A DNA stretch of 7,738 bases from the IMG/VR virus record IMGVR_UViG_2703718823_000003. One strand, 5' to 3'. This DNA is from a virus (taxonomy: Duplodnaviria; Heunggongvirae; Uroviricota; Caudoviricetes). A model generated the notes under the pieces. It was given only the letters and a program-made list of their open reading frames with translations, was not told the origin of the DNA and searched no databases. This document shows, piece by piece, positions 1-7,738 of the stretch; within the stretch, counting starts at the first letter, position 1; every line of letters starts with the position of its first letter. Both the position numbers and the translations under genes were made by a program.

Positions 1-51
1 TGCCGCACGCACATCTGATTTTTGTCGCCCGTATTCGTCAGGGGGTGTGCC

Positions 52-372
52 ATGCCTGACATGACCAATTACCAGTACCTGATTAATCCGCATTTTAACT
101 GTGAGCATGATATTGCTAAAAAGGTTTATTCCGCTGCGGATGGGGCTACTGACAATATATCAATGGCTGTTTCGTCAATTGGTAGCCTGATGTGGTATGC
201 GTCAGAAAATAAGGAATATGACGAAAAGGCCATGCGCATTGATATGGGTAATATCGGTTTGTTACTGGCAATGCTTGGGCAGTTTGATATTTCGTTACGG
301 TGCACCATTGAAAATGCCAAAGATGCATTAAATGCTATAAAGAAAGCGAATACTGATTCAAATCGGGGATAA
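52..372 (+). CDS. hypothetical protein (106 aa from ATG 52; the ORF track begins at TTG 22)
   Basis: Open frame to TAA 370-372. ATG at 52 is preceded by AGGGGG (39-45). Next gene starts 6 nt downstream. No recognisable motif. Confidence 0.5.
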   Translation: MPDMTNYQYLINPHFNCEHDIAKKVYSAADGATDNISMAVSSIGSLMWYASENKEYDEKAMRIDMGNIGLLLAMLGQFDISLRCTIENAKDALNAIKKANTDSNRG

Positions 373-378
373 ATAATC

Positions 379-678
379 ATGAGAACATATTTATCTGGCT
401 TGACTGCCAGCGGCCCCGCTCGGCCTGAAATCCGCCCAGGAGATATTTTCAGAGATAACTACGGTGGCGTTGTTGAGATTAAAGGCGTGGCAGAACGGCG
501 CATTACCTACCGCCGTGAAGGCTACGAATATGATTGCGTGATGCCTGTTTATCAGTTCCAGCGTGATTTTTCTCTGGTACAGGCAGCGCCCCGCAGTAAA
601 CCAACCAGCAGGGAGAAAGCACTCGCCAATATTCAGGAAATAAGAAAGATGTTGAATGTATTCAGGGGTAAAAAATGA
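379..678 (+). CDS. hypothetical protein (99 aa), translationally coupled to the primase gene
   Basis: ATG 379 with GGGGA upstream. Its stop overlaps the primase start as ATGA (675-678). No recognisable motif. Confidence 0.55.
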   Translation: MRTYLSGLTASGPARPEIRPGDIFRDNYGGVVEIKGVAERRITYRREGYEYDCVMPVYQFQRDFSLVQAAPRSKPTSREKALANIQEIRKMLNVFRGKK

Positions 679-2423
679 AACTGGCACCGAACGTAAAAAA
701 ACAACCACGCGGAATAAAACACAAAGACACAGAGGTAATTATTTTCGCGGGTAGTGATGCGTGGGCACATGCAAAACAGTGGCAGGAGCAGGACGGCCCC
801 GCATCCGGCGATAATGTGCCGCCTGTGTGGCTTGGGCCAAATCAGCTTGCCGAACTTGATGCACTGAAAATTGTTCCTGATGGAAAAAAACGCGTAAGGC
901 TGTACCAGGCCGGAGAACTGGATTTGGTGGAGACCAAAAAGATTGGTCAGAAGCTGGCGGCGGCAGATATTCAGGACGCAAATTTTTACCCCGAAGGAAT
1001 GCACGTCCAGAAGTGTGAAAACTGGCGGCGCTATCTGAATGCTGAGCGTGAAAATATTGCCGCAGGGCTTACCATGCCGGAGCAGAAAAATACGCAACTG
1101 GCACAAATGGCAGACAGTGAGCGCGCGCAGCTGCTTGCCGAGCGCTTTGATGGCGTTTGTGTGCATCCGGAAAGTGAAATCGTTCACGTATGGCGCGGCG
1201 GGGTATGGTGTCCGGTCAGCACAATGGAACTTAGCCGCGAAATGGTGGCGATCTATTCAGAGCACAGGGCCACTTTCAGCAAGCGCGTAATCAATAACGC
1301 CGTGGAAGCGTTAAAAGTTATTGCCGAACCAATGGGCGAGCCGTCCGGCGATTTGTTGCCGTTCGCCAATGGTGCGCTTGACCTGAAAACGGGGGAATTT
1401 TCCCCGCACACGCCGGAGAACTGGATCACCACGCACAACGGCATTGAGTACACGCCACCAGCACCAGGGGAGAATATCTGCGACAACGCGCCAAACTTTC
1501 ATAAATGGCTTGAGCACGCAGCCGGAAAAGACCCGCGCAAGATGATGCGTATATGTGCCGCGCTGTACATGATTATGGCGAACCGGTACGACTGGCAGAT
1601 GTTTATTGAGGCCACCGGAGAGGGCGGTAGCGGTAAAAGTACATTCACGCACATAGCCAGCCTTCTGGCAGGGAAACAGAACACGGTAAGCGCTGAAATG
1701 ACCTCACTTGATGATGCTGGTGGACGTGCGCAGGTTGTCGGGAGTCGTCTTATCGTCCTGGCTGACCAGCCGAAATATACAGGCGAAGGAACGGGCATCA
1801 AGAAAATCACGGGCGGCGACCCCGTGGAAATAAACCCGAAATATGAGAAGCGTTTTACGGCGGTAATCAGGGCGGTGGTGCTGGCTACCAACAATAACCC
1901 GATGATATTCACCGAGCGGGCCGGAGGTGTGTCACGCCGTCGGGTGATTTTCCGGTTCGACAACATTGTAAGGGAGGACGAAAAAGACAAGGATTTGCCG
2001 GAGAAGGTCGCGGCTGAAATCCCCGTAATTATCCGTCGCTTGCTGGCTAATTTTGCCGACCCTGAAAAGGCACGGGCTTTATTACTGGAACAGCGCGACG
2101 GTGATGAAGCTCTGGCAATAAAGCAACAGACGGATCCGGTTATTGAGTTTTGCCAGTTCCTGAATTTTCTGGAGGAAGCACGCGGCCTGATGATGGGCGG
2201 CGGTGGCGATTCAGTGAAGTACACGACCAGAAACAGCCTTTACCGCGTCTATCTGGCGTTTATGGCATACGCAGGCAGGAGCAAACCGCTAAACGTGGCT
2301 GAGTTCAGCAAGGCCATGAAGCCAGCGGCAAAAGTTTACGGACATGAATATATTACGCGGAGAGTTAAGGGAGTAACGCAGACCAACGCAATTACAACTG
2401 ATGATTGTGACGCGTTTTTATAA
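675..2423 (+). CDS. Satellite/phage-type DNA primase-helicase replication initiator (P4-alpha / D5-like P-loop NTPase family), 582 aa
   Basis: Longest ORF in the window. Walker A motif GEGGSGKST encoded around nt 1614-1643, followed by a hydrophobic-stretch-plus-acidic Walker-B-like segment (RLIVLADQ). Size and layout resemble primase/helicase proteins of P4-like and PICI elements. An iteron array lies immediately downstream. Family assignment is from motif recognition, not a search. Confidence 0.85.
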   Translation: MKLAPNVKKQPRGIKHKDTEVIIFAGSDAWAHAKQWQEQDGPASGDNVPPVWLGPNQLAELDALKIVPDGKKRVRLYQAGELDLVETKKIGQKLAAADIQDANFYPEGMHVQKCENWRRYLNAERENIAAGLTMPEQKNTQLAQMADSERAQLLAERFDGVCVHPESEIVHVWRGGVWCPVSTMELSREMVAIYSEHRATFSKRVINNAVEALKVIAEPMGEPSGDLLPFANGALDLKTGEFSPHTPENWITTHNGIEYTPPAPGENICDNAPNFHKWLEHAAGKDPRKMMRICAALYMIMANRYDWQMFIEATGEGGSGKSTFTHIASLLAGKQNTVSAEMTSLDDAGGRAQVVGSRLIVLADQPKYTGEGTGIKKITGGDPVEINPKYEKRFTAVIRAVVLATNNNPMIFTERAGGVSRRRVIFRFDNIVREDEKDKDLPEKVAAEIPVIIRRLLANFADPEKARALLLEQRDGDEALAIKQQTDPVIEFCQFLNFLEEARGLMMGGGGDSVKYTTRNSLYRVYLAFMAYAGRSKPLNVAEFSKAMKPAAKVYGHEYITRRVKGVTQTNAITTDDCDAFL

Positions 2424-2436
2424 TTTTTTGTAAAAG

Positions 2437-2664
2437 CCCTCTACCCCATCTACCTGAATGAAATAAACGCATATTATTCAACATGATAAGTGGGTAGAGG
2501 GCTAGGTAGAAGGCTAATAAAACCTCTCTACCTCTTCTACCATGATTAAGATCGTTTGTGAGGGGCGGGTAGAGGATGGGTAGAGGGCCACGAAAGCCCT
2601 CTACCCATCTGAAAGCCGCGCCATTACTGACATGAAAGATGATTAGGTAGAGAGGTAGAGGAGG
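2437..2664. repeat. Iteron array, probable origin of replication
   Basis: About 11 copies of the core GGTAGAG(G) / (C)CTCTACC in both orientations, for example 2437-2445, 2446-2454, 2492-2501, 2504-2513, 2523-2532, 2533-2541, 2568-2576, 2579-2587, 2597-2606, 2646-2655, 2654-2661. The block 2568-2588 is an inverted copy of 2436-2454. Position directly 3' of the primase gene matches the usual pri-ori arrangement in PICI/P4-type elements. Confidence 0.7.
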
Positions 2665-2709
2665 TGCACCACAACCTAAAACTTTTTAAACACGAGGGTA
2701 AAAATAAAA

Positions 2710-2967
2710 ATGCACACATCAGGAAGATTTAACAAATCACTCAAAAAACGCAGAGACAGAACAGAACCGAAATATCGCGCGTTAGACATGACAGAGCACG
2801 CTTTAAAGGTGGCAATCAGAACGATAGACCGCCACGCGGGGGGAAGGATACGCGAAAGCACATCCCGAACTGATAAGCGCATTCATGACCACGACGGCGG
2901 CAAATTTTGCCACGCTGACAGAGCGGGAGATTGCCGAAGCGGAACAGGTAACAACCATCAACGTTAA
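2710..2967 (+). CDS. hypothetical small basic protein (85 aa), low confidence
   Basis: ATG 2710 with GAGGG about 12 nt upstream. Product is Arg/His/Asp-rich and low in complexity, with several rare codons (AGA, AGG, ATA). It fills the gap between ori and the SSB-like gene. Confidence 0.3.
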   Translation: MHTSGRFNKSLKKRRDRTEPKYRALDMTEHALKVAIRTIDRHAGGRIRESTSRTDKRIHDHDGGKFCHADRAGDCRSGTGNNHQR

Positions 2968-2985
2968 AACCGGAGAGGTGGAATC

Positions 2986-3396
2986 ATGACAGCACAGATA
3001 GCAGCTTACGGGCGGCTGGTGGACGACCCGCAGGTAAAACAGACCAGCAAGGGCACACCAATGACGCTGGCACGTATGGCGGTATCGTTGCCATGTAGTC
3101 AGGCGCAGGATGGGCAGGCGACGTTATGGCTATCGGTCATCGCATTTGGTAAGCAGGCCGACTTCCTGGCTAAACATCAAAAAGGCGACGTTGCCAGCGT
3201 ATCCGGCACGATGCAGGTCAGCCAGTGGACCGGACAGAACGGGGAAACGCGGCAGGGTTATCAGGTTATTGCAGACAGCGTAATCAGTGCCCGTGCGGCA
3301 CGTCCTGGCGGGAACAGACGCAAAACCACAGGCACACAGGGTAATCAGCCACCAGCGGGAGACGATGACCCCTACGGTGATGATATTCAGTTCTGA
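2986..3396 (+). CDS. ssb: Single-stranded DNA-binding protein (SSB family, OB fold) with a divergent acidic C-terminal tail, 136 aa
   Basis: Translation aligns by eye with E. coli SSB: an N-terminal OB-fold pattern (GRLVDDPQV.. / LWLSVIAFGKQAD.. / VSQWTGQNGETRQGYQVIADSV), a Gly/Gln/Pro-rich linker, and an acidic tail DDDPYGDDIQF (compare DFDDDIPF). Comparison is from memory. Confidence 0.8.
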   Translation: MTAQIAAYGRLVDDPQVKQTSKGTPMTLARMAVSLPCSQAQDGQATLWLSVIAFGKQADFLAKHQKGDVASVSGTMQVSQWTGQNGETRQGYQVIADSVISARAARPGGNRRKTTGTQGNQPPAGDDDPYGDDIQF

Positions 3397-3406
3397 GGGG
3401 GTGACG

Positions 3407-3679
3407 ATGGTACATGACCGCATAGCGGAGGAACTCGAGGCAAAAGGCTTTTACCGGAGGGCATCGGCGCGATGGGGTGAAGTCATGCTGCTGGTGGAGA
3501 CAGACAAGGAACGGCATCAGGTTACGATGCGACGGCTGGAATGTTCCAGGAAGGCACAGAAGCCACCGGAGCCGCCGGATAACTTCGGAGACCTGAGAAA
3601 GGCAGTAGATCGCACTTATGCTGAAATGGGTATAGATGGTGTAAGCGATGAAATATGGCGTAATTACCCAGACAGCTAA
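3407..3679 (+). CDS. hypothetical protein (90 aa from ATG 3407)
   Basis: GAGGGGG (3395-3401) sits 5 nt before ATG 3407. The track ORF starts at an upstream GTG (3287) inside the SSB gene, which is less likely. Followed by terminator hairpins. Confidence 0.6.
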   Translation: MVHDRIAEELEAKGFYRRASARWGEVMLLVETDKERHQVTMRRLECSRKAQKPPEPPDNFGDLRKAVDRTYAEMGIDGVSDEIWRNYPDS

Positions 3680-3685
3680 TCAACA

Positions 3686-3708
3686 GCCGGAGTAATCCGG
3701 CTTTTTTG
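3686..3708 (+). terminator. Rho-independent terminator
   Basis: Stem GCCGGA (3686-3691) / TCCGGC (3696-3701), loop GTAA, then a T6 run (3702-3707), immediately after the stop at 3677-3679. Confidence 0.6.
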
Positions 3709-3713
3709 TACCC

Positions 3714-3757
3714 AAAAAAAGCCCGATAAGTACAGGAGGCATCTTATCGGGCTTTTG
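3714..3757. terminator. Second hairpin, possibly a bidirectional terminator
   Basis: 10-bp stem GCCCGATAAG (3721-3730) / CTTATCGGGC (3743-3752) flanked by an A7 run upstream and TTTTG downstream. Confidence 0.45.
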
Positions 3758-3835
3758 CATATGAGGTTTTTTTTGGTGCACTGACACACATGATCGGGAT
3801 CATCATTTCATAATTTGCAACACAACTCAACATCA

Positions 3836-3863
3836 TTGCATAAAATGCAATCATGATTATAAT
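3836..3863 (+). promoter_or_regulatory. Sigma70-like promoter for the capsid operon
   Basis: -35 TTGCAT (3836-3841), 16-bp spacer, -10 TATAAT (3858-3863), about 55 nt upstream of the ATG at 3920. A dyad TTGCAT-AAA-ATGCAA (3836-3850) overlaps the -35, and the palindrome AATCATGATT (3849-3858) lies in the spacer. Confidence 0.45.
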
Positions 3864-3868
3864 CAGAT

Positions 3869-3884
3869 CTGGATGAACATCCAG
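3869..3884. promoter_or_regulatory. Candidate operator (7-bp inverted repeat) just downstream of the -10
   Basis: CTGGATG-AA-CATCCAG, with perfect 7-bp arms, sits at about the predicted transcription start. Confidence 0.3.
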
Positions 3885-3919
3885 TTATGATTTTTTAAGT
3901 CAAAGAGGAATTTCTTACT

Positions 3920-4126
3920 ATGGCTGAAGAGAAAAAAGGCGGTGTTTCGGTGTACATAAGCCCCGACATCGTGAAGGCGCTCAAGGAACGCCACCAGCAG
4001 AACGTAAAAGCAGGCATTGCGGCAGGACTTGATCCGCTGGCGATGGTTGAGCCGTCAACAGGCTGGCAGGTACGCGCCTATTTACGCGCGGCGCTGGGTA
4101 TGAATCAGGTTCACGGGGGTGAATAA
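3920..4126 (+). CDS. hypothetical protein (68 aa), first gene of the capsid operon
   Basis: AAGAGGA upstream of ATG 3920. Its stop overlaps the capsid gene start as TAATG (4124-4128). No recognisable motif. Confidence 0.6.
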   Translation: MAEEKKGGVSVYISPDIVKALKERHQQNVKAGIAAGLDPLAMVEPSTGWQVRAYLRAALGMNQVHGGE

Positions 4127-5181
4127 TGACAGTAAAAGCAATAGCACTTAACACTAACCAGCTTTTTGCGTACCTGAATCGCGAGGATATTGCGGAATTT
4201 AAATTCAGTCCGCTGTTTACCGCGCTGTTTTTCCCGAACGTGGCGACATTCAACACACAGGACATCATGTTAGATAACCTGGATATTGAAGAAGTCACTA
4301 TGTCGGCGTTTTGTTCGCCTATGGTGGGTAGCCAGGTTCAGCGCGATAAAGGGTACGAAACAAGCATTATTCGCCCTGGCTACATGAAGCCAAAACACGA
4401 AATCGATCCATTAAAAACAATAATGCGCATGGCTGGAGAAGATCCAGCACAGCTTAACGACCCTACCTACCGCCGTATGCGCCTGATTACTGGCAACATG
4501 CGCCGCCAGATAAACGCCATTAAAGCGCGCGTGGAATGGCTGGCGGTAAATGCGGTAACGACCGGAAAAAACATCATTGAGGGCGAAGGCATAGAGCGCT
4601 ATGAAATCGACTGGAAGATACCGGAAAAAAACATCATAGAGCAGGCCGACGGTAAAAAATGGTCCGAGCAGGATAAAGACATACACGATCCAATCTATGA
4701 CATTGAGCTATACGCAGATCAGGCAGGTTGCCCCGCCAACGTCATGATTATGGGCGTTGATGTATGGCGCATGTTACGCAGCTTTAAAAAATTCCGTGAG
4801 CTGTACGATCTTTCCCGTGGTTCAGAATCCGCCGCAGAGCTGGCATGTAAAAACCTGGGCGAAGTGGTGAGCTTTAAGGGCTATCTTGGTGATCTGGCCC
4901 TTATCGTCTATTCCGGCAAATACACTGACAGCGACGGTACCGAAAAATATTTCCTTGAGCCTGATTTGCTGGTCCTGGGCAACACCAACAATAAAGGGCT
5001 GGTGGCCTATGGTGCGATTATGGAACAGGAAGCGGTCAGAACTGGCGCAACGCAAAACATGTACTACCCGAAAAACTGGATTGAGGACGGCGATCCGGCG
5101 ATTGAGTACGTGCAGACACACAGCGCACCGCAGCCGGTACCGGCAGATATTCGCAAATTTGTTACCGTCAAAATTGGTTAA
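4126..5181 (+). CDS. Major capsid protein, lambda gpE-like family, 351 aa
   Basis: Translation shares multiple collinear blocks with lambda gpE as recalled: EFKFSPLF..LFF (lambda KFKFDPLF..LFF), PGYMKPKHEI (PGYVKPKHEV), DPTYRRMRLI (DPAYRRRRII), WSEQDKDIHDP.YDIELYA (WSKRDKSTYDP.DDIEAYA), VSFKGYLGDLALIVYSGKY (VSYKGMYGDVAIVVYSGQY), VLGNT..GL.AYG (VLGNT..GL.TYG), YPKNW...GDPA (YPKNW..TGDPA). Length is close to lambda gpE (341 aa). Confidence 0.9.
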   Translation: MTVKAIALNTNQLFAYLNREDIAEFKFSPLFTALFFPNVATFNTQDIMLDNLDIEEVTMSAFCSPMVGSQVQRDKGYETSIIRPGYMKPKHEIDPLKTIMRMAGEDPAQLNDPTYRRMRLITGNMRRQINAIKARVEWLAVNAVTTGKNIIEGEGIERYEIDWKIPEKNIIEQADGKKWSEQDKDIHDPIYDIELYADQAGCPANVMIMGVDVWRMLRSFKKFRELYDLSRGSESAAELACKNLGEVVSFKGYLGDLALIVYSGKYTDSDGTEKYFLEPDLLVLGNTNNKGLVAYGAIMEQEAVRTGATQNMYYPKNWIEDGDPAIEYVQTHSAPQPVPADIRKFVTVKIG

Positions 5182-5192
5182 CGGGGGATTCT

Positions 5193-5528
5193 ATGAACAC
5201 TCCATACGTTGAGTTATTTGCAGGCAGTCAGCAGGTATCAACGACGCTGGTACATTTTGCCGCTGATGCTGGCGTTATTCAGGAATTTACCCCGCTGATG
5301 CTGGCGGACAATGGCGAGTTTAAGCCGTGGGATGGTCAGGAATCTGGCAAGGCTGTTTATCTGACTTCGTATCCTGTGGACACGTCAAAGCAGAAATCAG
5401 CACAGTGTTACAAGACGGGGATATTCAATATTGCCGCCGTTAACTGGCCTGAGAGCGTCGACACCGATGCGAAAAAATGCGCCGCCTTTGCGGGTTCCGG
5501 CGTATCAGTTCAGCCGCTGGCCCGATAA
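5193..5528 (+). CDS. Head decoration protein, lambda gpD-like family, 111 aa
   Basis: Blocks shared with lambda gpD as recalled: TPLML, WDG, YKTGIF (YKSGTF), WPE, KK.AAFAGSG (KKRTAFAGT). Length matches gpD (110 aa). GGGGGA RBS 4 nt before the ATG. Confidence 0.85.
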   Translation: MNTPYVELFAGSQQVSTTLVHFAADAGVIQEFTPLMLADNGEFKPWDGQESGKAVYLTSYPVDTSKQKSAQCYKTGIFNIAAVNWPESVDTDAKKCAAFAGSGVSVQPLAR

Positions 5529-5540
5529 GCAGGGGGAACG

Positions 5541-5954
5541 ATGGCAACGAATGAAAGCATCATGGCGCTACCGCTGGCGAGTAAATTTAAAGAAGAAGCG
5601 CGGGCAATGGCTGACAGAGGTTTATCAACATACGAGGCCGTATATCAACTCAACAAACTGGAAGAGCAGGACAAGCCGCGCGCTGATGCGATTATGGCGC
5701 TTCATGAGCATAAAGACTATCAGCCGCTGTTACGTGCAATGGCAAACGTGCCATGTATTAGCGTCGATAATGCTCGTGAAATCCTGAACATGACCATAGA
5801 GCAGGAGCGCCCAAAGGTTGCACCAGAGCTTACCGCAGCCTTTGAAAACTTTATGGACATGCACAGCCCGCAAGCCGTATCAGCTGGCATGGCATACGAT
5901 GGCAGAAACCAGGGCGATGACGGCGACATCGATCGCATACTGAAAACCATCTGA
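5541..5954 (+). CDS. hypothetical protein (137 aa), last gene of the capsid operon, directly upstream of cos
   Basis: AGGGGGA RBS before ATG 5541. Acidic C-terminus. No motif recognised. Followed by a hairpin and T-run. Confidence 0.65.
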   Translation: MATNESIMALPLASKFKEEARAMADRGLSTYEAVYQLNKLEEQDKPRADAIMALHEHKDYQPLLRAMANVPCISVDNAREILNMTIEQERPKVAPELTAAFENFMDMHSPQAVSAGMAYDGRNQGDDGDIDRILKTI

Positions 5955-5960
5955 GACAAG

Positions 5961-5983
5961 GCCGGAGAAATCCGGCTTTTTTT
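5961..5983 (+). terminator. Rho-independent terminator overlapping the cosQ-side flank
   Basis: Stem GCCGGA (5961-5966) / TCCGGC (5971-5976), loop GAAA, T7 run (5977-5983). The hairpin is nearly identical to the one at 3686-3708. Confidence 0.5.
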
Positions 5984-6211
5984 ACGGGTCCTTTCCGGCA
6001 TATGGACCCGTTACGGGGCGGCGACCTCGCGGTTTTTCGCTATTTATGAGATTTTTTGAGGGGGTGGTTGTTGTTTAATTGTTTGGTATATCTAATTGAT
6101 AAGTAAGGTAAAAATAAAATAAATACAACAACCTTACGATGTATTTTGATGTCATTAATGTGAAAAAATTCAATGATATCAAATGGTTTTGTAAAAACAC
6201 ATGGTTGTTGT
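5984..6211 (+). other. cos site 1 (lambda-type cosQ-flank, cosN, cosB-like region), + orientation
   Basis: TTTACGGGTCCTTTCCGG...GTTACG | GGGCGGCGACCT | CGCGG matches the lambda right-end/cosN/left-end junction as recalled; the 12-nt cohesive-end sequence GGGCGGCGACCT is at 6016-6027. Downstream there are three copies of GGTTGTTGT (6066-6074 direct, 6125-6133 inverted, 6203-6211 direct), spaced like lambda cosB R3/R2/R1. Confidence 0.7.
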
Positions 6212-6404
6212 ATCGCGTATTTGATGGCGTAACAGAAAGTGATTTTTAACTTTACCGCTCTGTAACTACGGATTATTCCATGCTGGCACGGAGAACGGCT
6301 ACGGCATGACGCCACCCAGCCTATACAGAACAGTAAAGCCGATAAATTGTTAATCACGCGCAGCAATGCGTGTGATTTTTGCACACTTCCGGTTAACTGG
6401 TACG

Positions 6405-6590
6405 ATGTCCGGTTTTAGTGTCTGTTTTTTGCGCATGTCCGGTTCATGGAAAGCATGTTTTTATATTTTTCATATGGTTAACTTGCAGAGAAACCGGACA
6501 TGGATCCCGGAAAATTTTCATAAATAGTGAAAACGCGCGAGGTCGCCGCCCCGTAACGGGCCATAATTCCAGGAAGGACCCGACGACACC
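6405..6590 (-). other. cos site 2 (lambda-type cosQ-flank, cosN, cosB-like region), inverted orientation
   Basis: The reverse complement of 6500-6590 reads ..GGGTCCTTCC.GG....CCCGTTACG | GGGCGGCGACCT | CGCGCGTTTTCACTATTTATGAAAATTTTCCGG, almost identical to the lambda cos left end as recalled; cosN is at 6540-6551 on the minus strand. Three copies of ATGTCCGGTT / AACCGGACAT lie at 6492-6501, 6435-6444 and 6405-6414, at R3/R2/R1-like distances. Confidence 0.7.
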
Positions 6591-6615
6591 AGACTATCAG
6601 AACGATGGGGGCACA

Positions 6616-6897
6616 ATGACAGAAGCCGAACTACTGCGATTAATCCGTCGCGTTGCCGGAATCAGCCAGCAGGCTGACGAACAGGCCACGCAGCCGGACA
6701 GCGTGACAGCCGAAAATTATGTGCGTGTTGTTGCGGAGGTGATGCGCCGTGATGGTATCCAGCTTAATGATGCGGATATGCGCGACATACGGATCCGCGT
6801 TCTTGAAATGCTGGCCTACCGTCGCCGCGTGCAGACGTACAGGGAAAAAGCAAAAATAACGTACCAGTGGAAGAAGCCGGAGCGATTACGGCGGTAA
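6616..6897 (+). CDS. hypothetical protein (93 aa), Arg-rich
   Basis: ATG 6616 with a GGGGG stretch about 5 nt upstream. The track ORF extends upstream to GTG 6418, through the cos sequence, which is unlikely. Ends at TAA 6895-6897. No motif recognised. Confidence 0.55.
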   Translation: MTEAELLRLIRRVAGISQQADEQATQPDSVTAENYVRVVAEVMRRDGIQLNDADMRDIRIRVLEMLAYRRRVQTYREKAKITYQWKKPERLRR

Positions 6898-6917
6898 CTT
6901 GCTGATATTCCCGATAA

Positions 6918-7157
6918 CGCAAAATTGCGCTCTGTCCTAACCCGTTGATATTTTCGGGAACAGCCAACGGCTGAGGCCGGAACAACGATTATCTTTCAGA
7001 TAGTCAGAGCTACGAAATTTTCGTAGTTTAATTACTCGCCAGTTTATCGTTAACCCGTTGATATTTTCGGAAACCTCAATTTGAGGAAGTCGGCGCGGTA
7101 ACTCGCTGAACTTTAAGCAAAGCGCAAAATTGCGCTTGCTGAATAATCATTATGATT
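6918..7157. repeat. Cluster of direct repeats and dyad symmetries (candidate regulatory region)
   Basis: 20-bp direct repeat TAACCCGTTGATATTTTCGG at 6938-6957 and 7051-7070. Dyad CGCAA-AA-TTGCG at 6918-6929 and, extended, at 7121-7136. Palindromes CTACGAAA-T-TTTCGTAG (7010-7026), CCTCAA-T-TTGAGG (7074-7086), AATCAT-T-ATGATT (7145-7157). Confidence 0.5.
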
Positions 7158-7213
7158 ACGCAGATGATTAAGGAATGACCGAAGGCGGAAATTCGCCTGT
7201 GGTTAATGGGGGA

Positions 7214-7433
7214 GTTGCAGATCTGCAACTCGACCATGAAACTACGGAAACTACCCGTAGTTTGGGTAGTAAGAGTAACACCCAGATTTTGGGGCTTACT
7301 CGTGATACCCAAATTTGGGGTATCGGTGGCAACCATAACGACTTTCGTTACGGTTGATGCTTTTACCCCATTGGTGGAGGCTGGGCGGCCTGCTGTGGGC
7401 TTTTCCACCATTGGTGGAAAGGTGCAGATCTGG
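7214..7433. other. Palindrome-rich, potentially highly structured segment (candidate ncRNA or protein-recognition DNA)
   Basis: Perfect 16-bp palindrome GTTGCAGATCTGCAAC (7214-7229) with a related copy TGCAGATCTG (7423-7432). Hairpin AAACTACGG / CCGTAGTTT (7239-7263) with a competing ACTACCC / GGGTAGT pairing. Hairpin GATACCC-AAATTTG-GGGTATC (7304-7324). Hairpin TAACGA-CTT-TCGTTA (7336-7350). CCATTGGTGG (7368-7377) can pair with CCACCATTGG (7405-7414). Confidence 0.3.
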
Positions 7434-7633
7434 ATCATCATTACGGTGATCAAGGGTATGTAAAACCCACCAGCCTGATTAACAGTTAACCGGAAAAAAA
7501 TTCCGGTAGGTGGGGATCCCCATATCGACATTAACGCCCCTCATGAATTAGCGCGCTTCCCCCTGGAAAGATGACCCGCCTGTATATTTCTTGTGTCTAT
7601 TTGTTCCACGTTGTTTCATACAGTGCACCGAAC

Positions 7634-7655
7634 GGTGTAGTCACTGGTGTAGTCA
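7634..7655. promoter_or_regulatory. Tandem 12-bp repeat in an AT-rich region at the window edge
   Basis: GGTGTAGTCACT GGTGTAGTCATT, followed by AT-rich sequence running to the end of the window. Likely a control region for something outside the window. Confidence 0.25.
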
Positions 7656-7738
7656 TTTTGCGATTTATGGCATTTTTTGTAGTGCAAATTATTTAATTAA
7701 ATCAATGCGTTAAGTGAAATTAGTTATATATAACAGCA

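What the first reader, a model, noticed from the sequence alone, without database searches (positions are those of the whole stretch)
2986..3396. Satellite-encoded SSB homolog with an altered C-terminal tip
The protein has an SSB-like OB fold and acidic tail, but the tail ends DDDPYGDDIQF rather than the canonical ...DDDIPF that recruits many host replication and repair proteins. A mobile-element SSB with a modified tip could redirect or compete for host SSB-interacting proteins, or serve the element's own primase specifically.
Basis: partly seen in the sequence, partly recalled or inferred. Interest (0 to 1): 0.4.

Follow-up and report, generated by a model that had tools for sequence, protein, structure and literature searches.

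The report
Satellite SSB with a rare tip variant
This is an ordinary single-stranded-DNA-binding protein gene in the replication module of a known E. coli phage satellite, and its unusual tail ending comes from one rare base change, because nearly all E. coli copies end in the standard host-like motif.

Summary
The ORF at 2986-3396 (+) is real. It encodes a 136-aa SSB with a confident OB fold (residues 1-103), a short disordered linker and an acidic tail ending DDDPYGDDIQF. The window is an EcCICFT073-type phage-inducible chromosomal island (PICI). The gene lies just downstream of the island's primase-helicase and iteron origin and just upstream of perC.

The altered tip is not a property of the E. 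coli satellite SSBs. CFT073 and 70 of 74 distinct 136-aa homologues end in the canonical ...DDIPF. Here one CCG to CAG change gives P135Q. That allele occurs in 3 of 5426 complete E. coli genomes and on 87 contigs, while 943 genomes carry the gene. The changed residue corresponds to Pro176 of E. coli SSB, which is Ser in the partner-binding mutant ssb-113. So the likeliest reading is a rare allele with weakened host-partner binding, not a redesigned tail.

Two side findings keep a more interesting reading open. A P to S allele, the same substitution as ssb-113, occurs in at least 362 complete genomes (O157:H7, O145, O26), in intact-looking PICIs and capsid-forming PICIs. Klebsiella orthologues end ...YDDDF. 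Function is untested, and none of the five satellite papers whose text I searched mentions this gene.

The parts
2986..3396 (+). ssb gene: 136-aa single-stranded-DNA-binding protein, stop codon included
   Evidence: ORF list and sequence. Pfam PF00436 62.6 bits. TIGR00621 above cut-off. PDB SSB hits. dN/dS 0.05-0.30.
2986..3294 (+). OB-fold DNA-binding core (residues 1-103). W48, F54 and W81 correspond to EcSSB W54, F60 and W88. EcSSB W40 and H55 are replaced by C37 and L49.
   Evidence: AlphaFold block-mean pLDDT 77-91 with strands E2-11, 16-19, 25-36, 44-54, helix 55-62, E69-82, 88-102. Foldseek top hits are all SSBs, target-normalised TM 0.64-0.79. Alignment to EcSSB.
3295..3360 (+). Short disordered linker (residues 104-125). 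Homologues differ here by insertions and deletions.
   Evidence: pLDDT <50. Length variation in the alignment.
3361..3393 (+). Acidic C-terminal tip DDDPYGDDIQF (residues 126-136)
   Evidence: Translation. Aligns to the EcSSB tip DFDDDIPF.
3388..3390 (+). Codon 135, CAG (Gln). CFT073 and most homologues have CCG (Pro) and the EHEC allele has TCG (Ser). Equivalent to EcSSB Pro176, the ssb-113 site.
   Evidence: DNA alignments. Allele-specific probes. ssb-113 = P176S (PMC3045619).
2973..2982 (+). Shine-Dalgarno-like GGAGAGGTGG upstream of the ssb start codon
   Evidence: Read from the sequence. Inference.
2710..2967 (+). Small upstream ORF, frameshifted relative to CFT073 by an extra G in the G-run at 2838-2843. 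In CFT073 the intact gene overlaps the ssb start (ATGA).
   Evidence: Alignment. Annotated 'frameshifted' in STEC2018-607 and JNEC-KY203.
2431..2665 (.). Iteron cluster (GGGTAGAGGGC-type repeats in both orientations), probably the PICI replication origin
   Evidence: Repeat families D1-D4 and I1-I13. GC dips to 0.43 here. PMC6092414 places PICI origins immediately 3' of the replication initiator gene.
675..2423 (+). Primase-helicase of the island (D5_N + DUF5906 + Pox_D5; P4-family primase C-terminal region)
   Evidence: Pfam, PHROG 864, TIGR01613.
3407..3679 (+). perC-family regulator gene, 10 nt downstream of ssb and probably co-transcribed with it
   Evidence: Pfam PerC, E=5e-45. Adjacent to ssb in four of the related loci examined; in two others a ProQ/FinO gene follows ssb instead.
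3685..3702 (+). Terminator-like hairpin followed by a T-run, after perC
   Evidence: Consensus scan. A pattern match only.

Best explanation
The ORF encodes the accessory SSB of an EcCICFT073-type phage-inducible chromosomal island. It belongs to the island's replication module: primase-helicase, iteron origin, small ORF, ssb, perC. Inferred mechanism: a helper phage induces the island, which excises and replicates from its own origin. The SSB coats the unwound single strands through its OB fold. Its acidic tail ending in Phe docks onto the proteins that normally read the host SSB tip, such as the Pol III chi subunit, primase and restart or repair factors. In E. coli the satellite SSB tip is the canonical ...DDIPF, so it is built to use the host's SSB partners. 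The Gln in this window is one CCG->CAG substitution confined to a small sublineage. It hits the residue equivalent to Pro176 of E. coli SSB, so it probably weakens partner binding as ssb-113 (P176S) does, while leaving ssDNA binding intact. It is best read as a rare polymorphism in a non-essential accessory gene, not as an engineered tail. Shown here: gene, fold, family membership, context, allele frequencies and purifying selection. Inferred: tetramer formation, ssDNA coating, partner docking and the effect of Q135.
For: SSB family membership and OB fold. PICI identity and synteny, with int, alpA-like HTH, primase, ssb, perC, capsid and decoration genes between chromosomal genes. PMC6092414 describes EcCICFT073. 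Iterons lie between the primase gene and ssb. ssb sits directly downstream of the initiator in every satellite examined, whatever the initiator type: D5_N primase, RepA helicase or DUF927/Toprim. Canonical tip in the family: the commonest tail among 120 homologues is ...DDPYGDDIPF, CFT073 ends DDIPF and 70 of 74 distinct 136-aa sequences have Pro135. Rarity of Q135: 3 of 5426 complete genomes against 943 with the gene, and 87 contigs against at least 1000 each for the CFT073 and ISF alleles. It is a single-base change. Position 135 is no more variable than many other columns. Signs of decay in this sublineage: a frameshifted upstream ORF, IS1 in the origin region in JNEC-KY203 and loss of the capsid module in LZSFT34. 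P176S impairs chi binding and replication (PMC3045619).
Against: No binding or genetic test was possible, so the effect of Q135 is argued by analogy only. Loss of the tip Pro is tolerated elsewhere. The P->S allele is in at least 362 complete genomes and in intact-looking PICIs and cf-PICIs. Among 79 more distant relatives with acidic tips, only 45 have Pro at -2. Klebsiella orthologues end YDDDF. So Pro may not matter much for this clade's function, or tip changes may be selected. The IQF module occurs at two different integration sites, so it has spread and is not merely a dead-end mutation.
Confidence: 0.6

Rival explanations
1. The change is functionally silent. Docking depends mainly on the terminal Phe, its carboxylate and the preceding acidic residues, so Q at -2 still binds the relevant partners and the allele is effectively neutral.
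For: In 79 distant relatives with acidic tips, -1 is Phe in 72 but -2 is Pro in only 45, with G, S, D, N, A, E and Q also present. The ISF allele persists in hundreds of genomes and in intact-looking elements. F136, I134, D132, D133 and Y130 are all retained in the window protein.
Against: In E. coli SSB the same position changed to Ser gives temperature-sensitive replication and loss of chi binding (PMC3045619). Within the E. coli satellite clade Pro135 is kept in 70 of 74 distinct sequences.
Confidence: 0.2
2. The change is an adaptive retuning of the tip. Satellites repeatedly remove the tip Pro (Q here, S in EHEC islands, YDDDF in Klebsiella). This could uncouple their SSB from the host SSB interactome, favour the satellite's own primase-helicase, poison helper-phage or host replication on induction, or avoid SSB-sensing defences.
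For: There are at least two independent single-step changes from CCG at the same codon, CAG and TCG. ISF appears in several sequence backgrounds. An identical ssb(ISF)-perC cassette is shared by a classical PICI and a capsid-forming PICI with different initiators and integration sites. Klebsiella orthologues have a different tip. Phage SSBs are known triggers of several defence systems (titles and abstracts), and lambda Red-beta binds the host SSB tip (PMC6393309 abstract).
Against: Most E. coli copies keep IPF. Codon 135 is not a variability hot spot among distinct sequences. Tip alleles do not co-vary with initiator type. The IQF allele is very rare. The ISF count is inflated by clonal EHEC sampling, and its spread across backgrounds could reflect recombination and not repeated mutation.
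Confidence: 0.15
3. The variant is a sequencing error, or the gene is dead in this window.
For: The neighbouring upstream ORF is frameshifted in a G-run.
Against: The identical protein is on 87 contigs and in three independently finished genomes. The ORF is full length with its RBS. Family dN/dS is 0.05-0.30.
Confidence: 0.02

Closest known systems
SSB of PICI EcCICFT073 (E. coli CFT073, WP_000126698.1)
   Same: The same gene in the same position (primase, origin, small ORF, ssb, perC). It has 133 of 136 identical residues and 6 nucleotide differences in 411.
   Different: CFT073 has the canonical tip GGDDPYGDDIPF and the window has GDDDPYGDDIQF (I52M, D126G, Q135P). The CFT073 upstream ORF is intact. 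None of the five satellite papers whose text I searched, three of them on EcCICFT073 and related E. coli PICIs, mentions this gene.
E. coli chromosomal SSB (PDB 1EQQ)
   Same: OB fold. Equivalents of W54, F60, W88, K62 and K73 are present. It has a disordered linker and an acidic tip with an aromatic residue at -7, Ile at -3 and a terminal Phe.
   Different: Only 38 identical residues in the alignment. 136 aa against 178 aa, with a linker of about 22 residues (104-125) against about 60, and no Gly/Gln/Pro-rich repeats. W40->C and H55->L. It fails the E. coli-type NCBIfam model (28.8 bits against 260). In this allele the tip has P176->Q and D172->G.
SSB-113 (ssb-113, P176S) mutant of E. coli SSB
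   Same: Substitution of the penultimate proline of the tip. The EHEC satellite allele (ISF) makes exactly the same P->S change. SSB-113 is impaired in chi binding and replication (PMC3045619).
   Different: The residue here is Gln, in a non-essential accessory SSB of a mobile element. No phenotype has been measured.
Plasmid-borne SSBs of conjugative plasmids (NCBIfam PRK13732 type)
   Same: Accessory SSBs carried by mobile elements in enterobacteria.
   Different: The window protein scores 25.5 bits against a cut-off of 265 for that model. It lies in a satellite replication module and not in a plasmid leading region. Only 49 of 72,556 plasmid records hold any relative.
Phage T7 gp2.5 (from general knowledge, not tested here)
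   Same: A working analogy only: a mobile-element ssDNA-binding protein whose acidic tail ends in an essential Phe that docks onto the element's own polymerase and primase-helicase.
   Different: A different OB-fold family and a dimer. No sequence relationship was tested or claimed.

Membership tests
Bacterial SSB family (Pfam PF00436 / NCBIfam TIGR00621) | Sequence match above the curated thresholds | tested here: met
   PF00436 62.6 bits against 26. TIGR00621 58.1 bits against 53.95. PHROG 44, E=1e-38.
Bacterial SSB family (Pfam PF00436 / NCBIfam TIGR00621) | OB fold resembling solved SSB structures | tested here: met
   AlphaFold block-mean pLDDT 77-91 over residues 1-103. All top 50 Foldseek PDB hits are SSBs, E down to 5e-9, target-normalised TM 0.64-0.79.
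Bacterial SSB family (Pfam PF00436 / NCBIfam TIGR00621) | Aromatic ssDNA-stacking residues (EcSSB W40, W54, F60, W88) | tested here: inconclusive
   W48, F54 and W81 align with W54, F60 and W88, but W40 aligns with C37. Three of four are kept, and W48, F54 and W81 are invariant in 14 homologues.
Bacterial SSB family (Pfam PF00436 / NCBIfam TIGR00621) | Disordered linker followed by an acidic tip ending [I/L]-P-F | tested here: not met
   The linker and acidic tip are present. This allele ends I-Q-F, while CFT073 and 70 of 74 distinct 136-aa homologues end I-P-F. The feature is met by the E. coli clade and missed by this allele at one residue.
Bacterial SSB family (Pfam PF00436 / NCBIfam TIGR00621) | Homotetramer that binds ssDNA | not testable with these tools
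   Only single chains can be modelled. EcSSB H55 (tetramer interface) is L49 here.
E. coli-type chromosomal SSB (NCBIfam NF006533) and plasmid-type SSB (NF010292) | Score above the subfamily cut-off | tested here: not met
   28.8 bits against 260, and 25.5 bits against 265.
EcCICFT073-type PICI (Gram-negative phage-inducible chromosomal island) | About 10-15 kb island with integrase, alpA-type regulator, primase/replication gene with an adjacent iteron origin, no lysis or tail genes, inserted at a specific chromosomal site | tested here: met
   90% identity to the CFT073 island and 98.8% to the STEC2018-607 island at tRNA-Pro. Primase. Iterons. Lambda E/D-like capsid and decoration genes, as described for c1499 and c1500. 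The integrase and attachment sites lie outside the window.
EcCICFT073-type PICI (Gram-negative phage-inducible chromosomal island) | Induction, replication and packaging dependent on a helper phage | not testable with these tools
   Shown experimentally for EcCICFT073 in PMC6092414, not for this island.
ssb-113-like tip-defective SSB | Penultimate Pro of the tip replaced | tested here: met
   Q135 aligns with P176. The change is CCG->CAG.
ssb-113-like tip-defective SSB | Loss of binding to chi and other SSB-interacting proteins | not testable with these tools
   Requires peptide-binding or genetic assays.

The most novel reading that the evidence does not exclude
Enterobacterial phage satellites carry their own SSB clade, whose partner-docking tip is remodelled repeatedly: DDIPF, DDISF, DDIQF and, in Klebsiella, YDDDF. 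The proline-less versions, including a natural copy of the classic ssb-113 mutation fixed in EHEC PICIs and cf-PICIs, could be adaptive. They might uncouple the satellite SSB from the host SSB interactome, favour the satellite's own primase-helicase, or interfere with helper-phage replication or SSB-sensing defences. The window's IQF allele would then be one more instance of this.
Probability: 0.15. Interest if true: 0.6.

Novelty: new member of a known kind. Interest (0 to 1): 0.3.

Why it matters
As it stands, this is a routine accessory replication gene of a known satellite carrying a rare missense allele, so little changes. It is worth recording that E. coli and Klebsiella satellites share a distinct, unstudied short SSB clade that always lies next to the satellite's replication initiator. 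It is also worth recording that natural populations hold tip variants at the residue that defines the textbook ssb-113 defect. Those alleles are ready-made reagents. Swapping IPF, ISF and IQF in an inducible PICI would show whether a satellite needs the host SSB interactome to replicate and whether a tip-defective SSB affects the helper phage.

Tried and rejected
(1) Phage origin. tblastn against 50,697 phage records found only distant SSBs (35% identity or less, mostly Staphylococcus phages and uncultured gut phages), so the gene was not borrowed recently from a sequenced helper phage.

(2) Plasmid origin. Only 49 plasmid records match, and the close ones look like island or phage-like inserts.

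(3) Mutational hot spot at codon 135. Per-column variation among 74 distinct 136-aa sequences shows 4 variants at position 135, which is unremarkable next to many other columns.

(4) Co-variation of the tip with the replication initiator. None was seen.

(5) Sequencing error. Rejected by 87 contigs and three finished genomes.

(6) Species-wide scan of GTDB representative genomes. It returned only 4 loci (E. albertii and three Klebsiella). That is too few for a tip phylogeny, though it revealed the YDDDF tips.

(7) tRNA and Rfam scans of the window found nothing. The promoter scan gave nothing above the shuffled expectation.

(8) Literature. The main texts of four satellite papers contain no occurrence of 'ssb', 'single-strand' or 'single strand', and a fifth shows zero occurrences of 'ssb'.

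(9) Tetramer or tail-partner modelling was not possible, because the structure tool takes single chains from the window or its homologues only.

(10) The second place matching the IQF probe in STEC2018-607 could not be located, because only the best place per record is listed.

Full report
**Observation.** The window has an ATG..TGA ORF at exactly 2986-3396 on the + strand, 136 aa long, preceded by a purine-rich GGAGAGGTGG.
- It matches Pfam SSB (PF00436) at 62.6 bits against a cut-off of 26, and NCBIfam TIGR00621 at 58.1 bits against 53.95. It also matches PHROG 44, 'single strand DNA binding protein'.
- By sequence it matches 26 distinct solved SSB chains.
- An AlphaFold model built on 14 homologues gives a confident five-stranded OB fold with one helix for residues 1-103 (block-mean pLDDT 77-91). 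Residues 104-136 are disordered, with pLDDT below 50.
- The 50 best Foldseek matches in the PDB are all SSBs.
- Pairwise dN/dS among six satellite copies is 0.05-0.30.

The gene is therefore real, coding and an SSB.

**Where it sits.** The whole window is 98.8% identical to an island between tRNA-Pro/yejM and yejO in E. coli STEC2018-607. It is 90% identical to the island between roxA and phoQ of CFT073. The CFT073 island is EcCICFT073, the prototype Gram-negative phage-inducible chromosomal island. PMC6092414 describes its lambda-E-like capsid gene (c1499) and decoration gene (c1500).

The window contains these features, in order:
- a DUF4222 gene;
- a D5_N/DUF5906 P4-family primase-helicase at 675-2423;
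- an AT-richer gap with GGGTAGAGGGC-type iterons in both orientations at 2431-2665, where PMC6092414 places PICI origins;
- a small ORF at 2710-2967;
- ssb;
- perC at 3407-3679, followed by a terminator-like hairpin;
- capsid, decoration and scaffold-like genes.

In every related element examined, ssb lies directly downstream of the replication initiator, whatever that initiator is.
- D5_N primase: CFT073, STEC2018-607, LZSFT34, JNEC-KY203 and the O26 element.
- RepA-family helicase: the O157-like and O145 islands.
- An annotated 'DNA primase family protein'.
- DUF927 in a capsid-forming PICI.
- Zn-ribbon/Toprim/DUF927 in Klebsiella.

So this SSB is a conserved accessory of satellite replication modules.

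**The tip.** I aligned the protein to E. coli SSB, whose sequence I confirmed against PDB 1EQQ. YGDDIQF pairs with FDDDIPF. The 'PYG' is therefore not an insertion: Y130 corresponds to F171. Apart from that conservative F->Y change, the eight-residue tip departs from the canonical one only at D172->G and P176->Q.

More importantly, Q is not a family feature.
- The CFT073 copy ends GGDDPYGDDIPF.
- The commonest tail among 120 homologues is ...DDPYGDDIPF.
- 70 of 74 distinct 136-aa sequences have Pro at position 135.
- The window differs from CFT073 at codon 135 by one base, CCG->CAG.

To count alleles I used 42-nt probes with the variable base in the centre, so that every 28-nt megablast seed must contain it.
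- The CAG (IQF) allele is in 3 of 5426 complete E. coli genomes, while 943 genomes carry the gene at 80% coverage or more.
- The exact IQF protein is on 87 contigs. The CFT073 allele and the ISF allele are each on at least 1000, where the counter is capped.
- The IQF module occurs at tRNA-Pro in two genomes and next to clpS in one.
- In those genomes the island shows some decay: a frameshifted upstream ORF, an IS1 in the origin region, or a missing capsid module.

**What Q135 probably does.** Position 135 corresponds to Pro176 of E. coli SSB. The classic ssb-113 allele is P176S. It is temperature-sensitive for replication, damage-sensitive and impaired in binding the chi subunit. In the model of PMC3045619, the proline makes a hydrophobic contact and restricts the flexibility of the tip. 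By analogy, Q135 should weaken docking onto host SSB-interacting proteins and leave the OB fold untouched. That is inference, because no tool here can measure it.

**Complications found in passing.**
- *A common P->S allele.* A TCG allele (tip DDISF), exactly the ssb-113 substitution, is present in at least 362 complete genomes, including O157:H7, O145:H28 and O26:H11.
- *It travels as a cassette.* The identical protein (WP_000126687.1) and an identical PerC form a cassette in two kinds of element. One is a classical PICI with a RepA helicase at roxA-phoQ. The other is a capsid-forming PICI with a D5_N primase at pntB/tqsA. Both kinds look intact.
- *Several backgrounds.* ISF also appears as rare variants in other sequence backgrounds, by repeated mutation or by recombination.
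- *Distant relatives.* Among 79 representatives at 50% identity or less that have an acidic tip, the terminal residue is Phe in 72 but -2 is Pro in only 45.
- *Klebsiella.* Three orthologues at 60-72% identity end ...YDDDF.

So the terminal Phe and the acidity are the constants of this clade, and the -2 proline is negotiable. This weakens the claim that Q135 is damaging. It also leaves room for the idea that satellites tune this tip. On the other side, codon 135 is not unusually variable among distinct sequences, tip alleles do not track initiator type, and the ISF count is inflated by heavy sampling of clonal EHEC.

**Comparison with known systems.** The protein is a member of the general SSB family. 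It is not a member of the E. coli chromosomal type (28.8 bits against 260) or the plasmid type (25.5 bits against 265). It shares 38 identical residues with E. coli SSB, has a much shorter linker, and lacks W40 and H55. No sequenced phage carries a close relative; the best match is 35% identical. Plasmids rarely do. RefSeq already annotates the gene as 'single-stranded DNA-binding protein' in the related E. coli genomes examined. However, none of the five satellite papers whose text I searched mentions it.

**Verdict.** This is a satellite SSB, but its odd tip is a rare single-base allele of a protein whose normal tip is canonical. I commit to this mechanism: an accessory SSB for island replication that uses host SSB partners, with Q135 a probably hypomorphic, non-adaptive polymorphism (confidence about 0.6). 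The more interesting reading is adaptive remodelling of satellite SSB tips, for which the EHEC ISF allele and the Klebsiella YDDDF tips are better evidence than this window. I give that reading about 0.15. Interest is low to moderate.

Noticed in passing
L003:7001-7411, L009:7618-8028, L008:7618-8028 (related loci); corresponds to window 3388-3390: A P->S tip allele (DDISF), the same substitution as E. coli ssb-113, is in at least 362 of 5426 complete genomes (O157:H7, O145:H28, O26:H11). The identical SSB and PerC proteins form a cassette shared by a classical PICI (RepA helicase, roxA-phoQ site) and a capsid-forming PICI (D5_N primase, HK97 head genes, pntB/tqsA site).
   Followed up: partly
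L011:4001-4444, L012:4001-4444, L013:4001-4444: Klebsiella orthologues (60-72% identical, 147 aa) end ...PLYDDDF, ...TPYDDDF or ...PPYDDDF, with no Ile-Pro before the terminal Phe. In L013 the gene follows a Zn-ribbon/Toprim/DUF927 primase-helicase and an Ash-family gene.
   Followed up: partly
window 2431-2665: A cluster of GGGTAGAGGGC-like iterons in direct and inverted orientation lies in the AT-richer gap after the primase gene. It is probably the island's replication origin.
   Followed up: partly
window 2710-2967 (G-run 2838-2843): The small ORF upstream of ssb carries an extra G in a G-run relative to CFT073 and LZSFT34. Its reading frame therefore ends 19 nt before ssb and no longer overlaps the ssb start (ATGA) as in CFT073. 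It is annotated 'frameshifted' in STEC2018-607 and JNEC-KY203.
   Followed up: yes
window 4126-5954: The island carries a lambda gpE-like major capsid gene, a gpD-like decoration gene and a 137-aa protein resembling the C-terminal part of a head maturation protease or scaffold (PHROG 53). It has no portal or terminase in the window. PMC6092414 reports that deleting the CFT073 capsid and decoration genes was tested for a role in lambda interference.
   Followed up: no
window 3685-3702: A GC-rich hairpin followed by a T-run lies immediately after perC, which suggests that ssb and perC end a transcription unit.
   Followed up: no
NZ_CP075697.1 (STEC2018-607), location not resolved: The IQF-specific 42-mer matches two places, and the ssb gene four places, in this one genome. 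The strain therefore carries several satellite ssb copies, two of them with the Q allele.
   Followed up: no
window 7516-7738 and 1-25: The ends of the window do not align with the closest complete-genome island (the match covers 26-7515). The source genome is therefore not among the 5426 complete genomes, or its island has different flanks.
   Followed up: no
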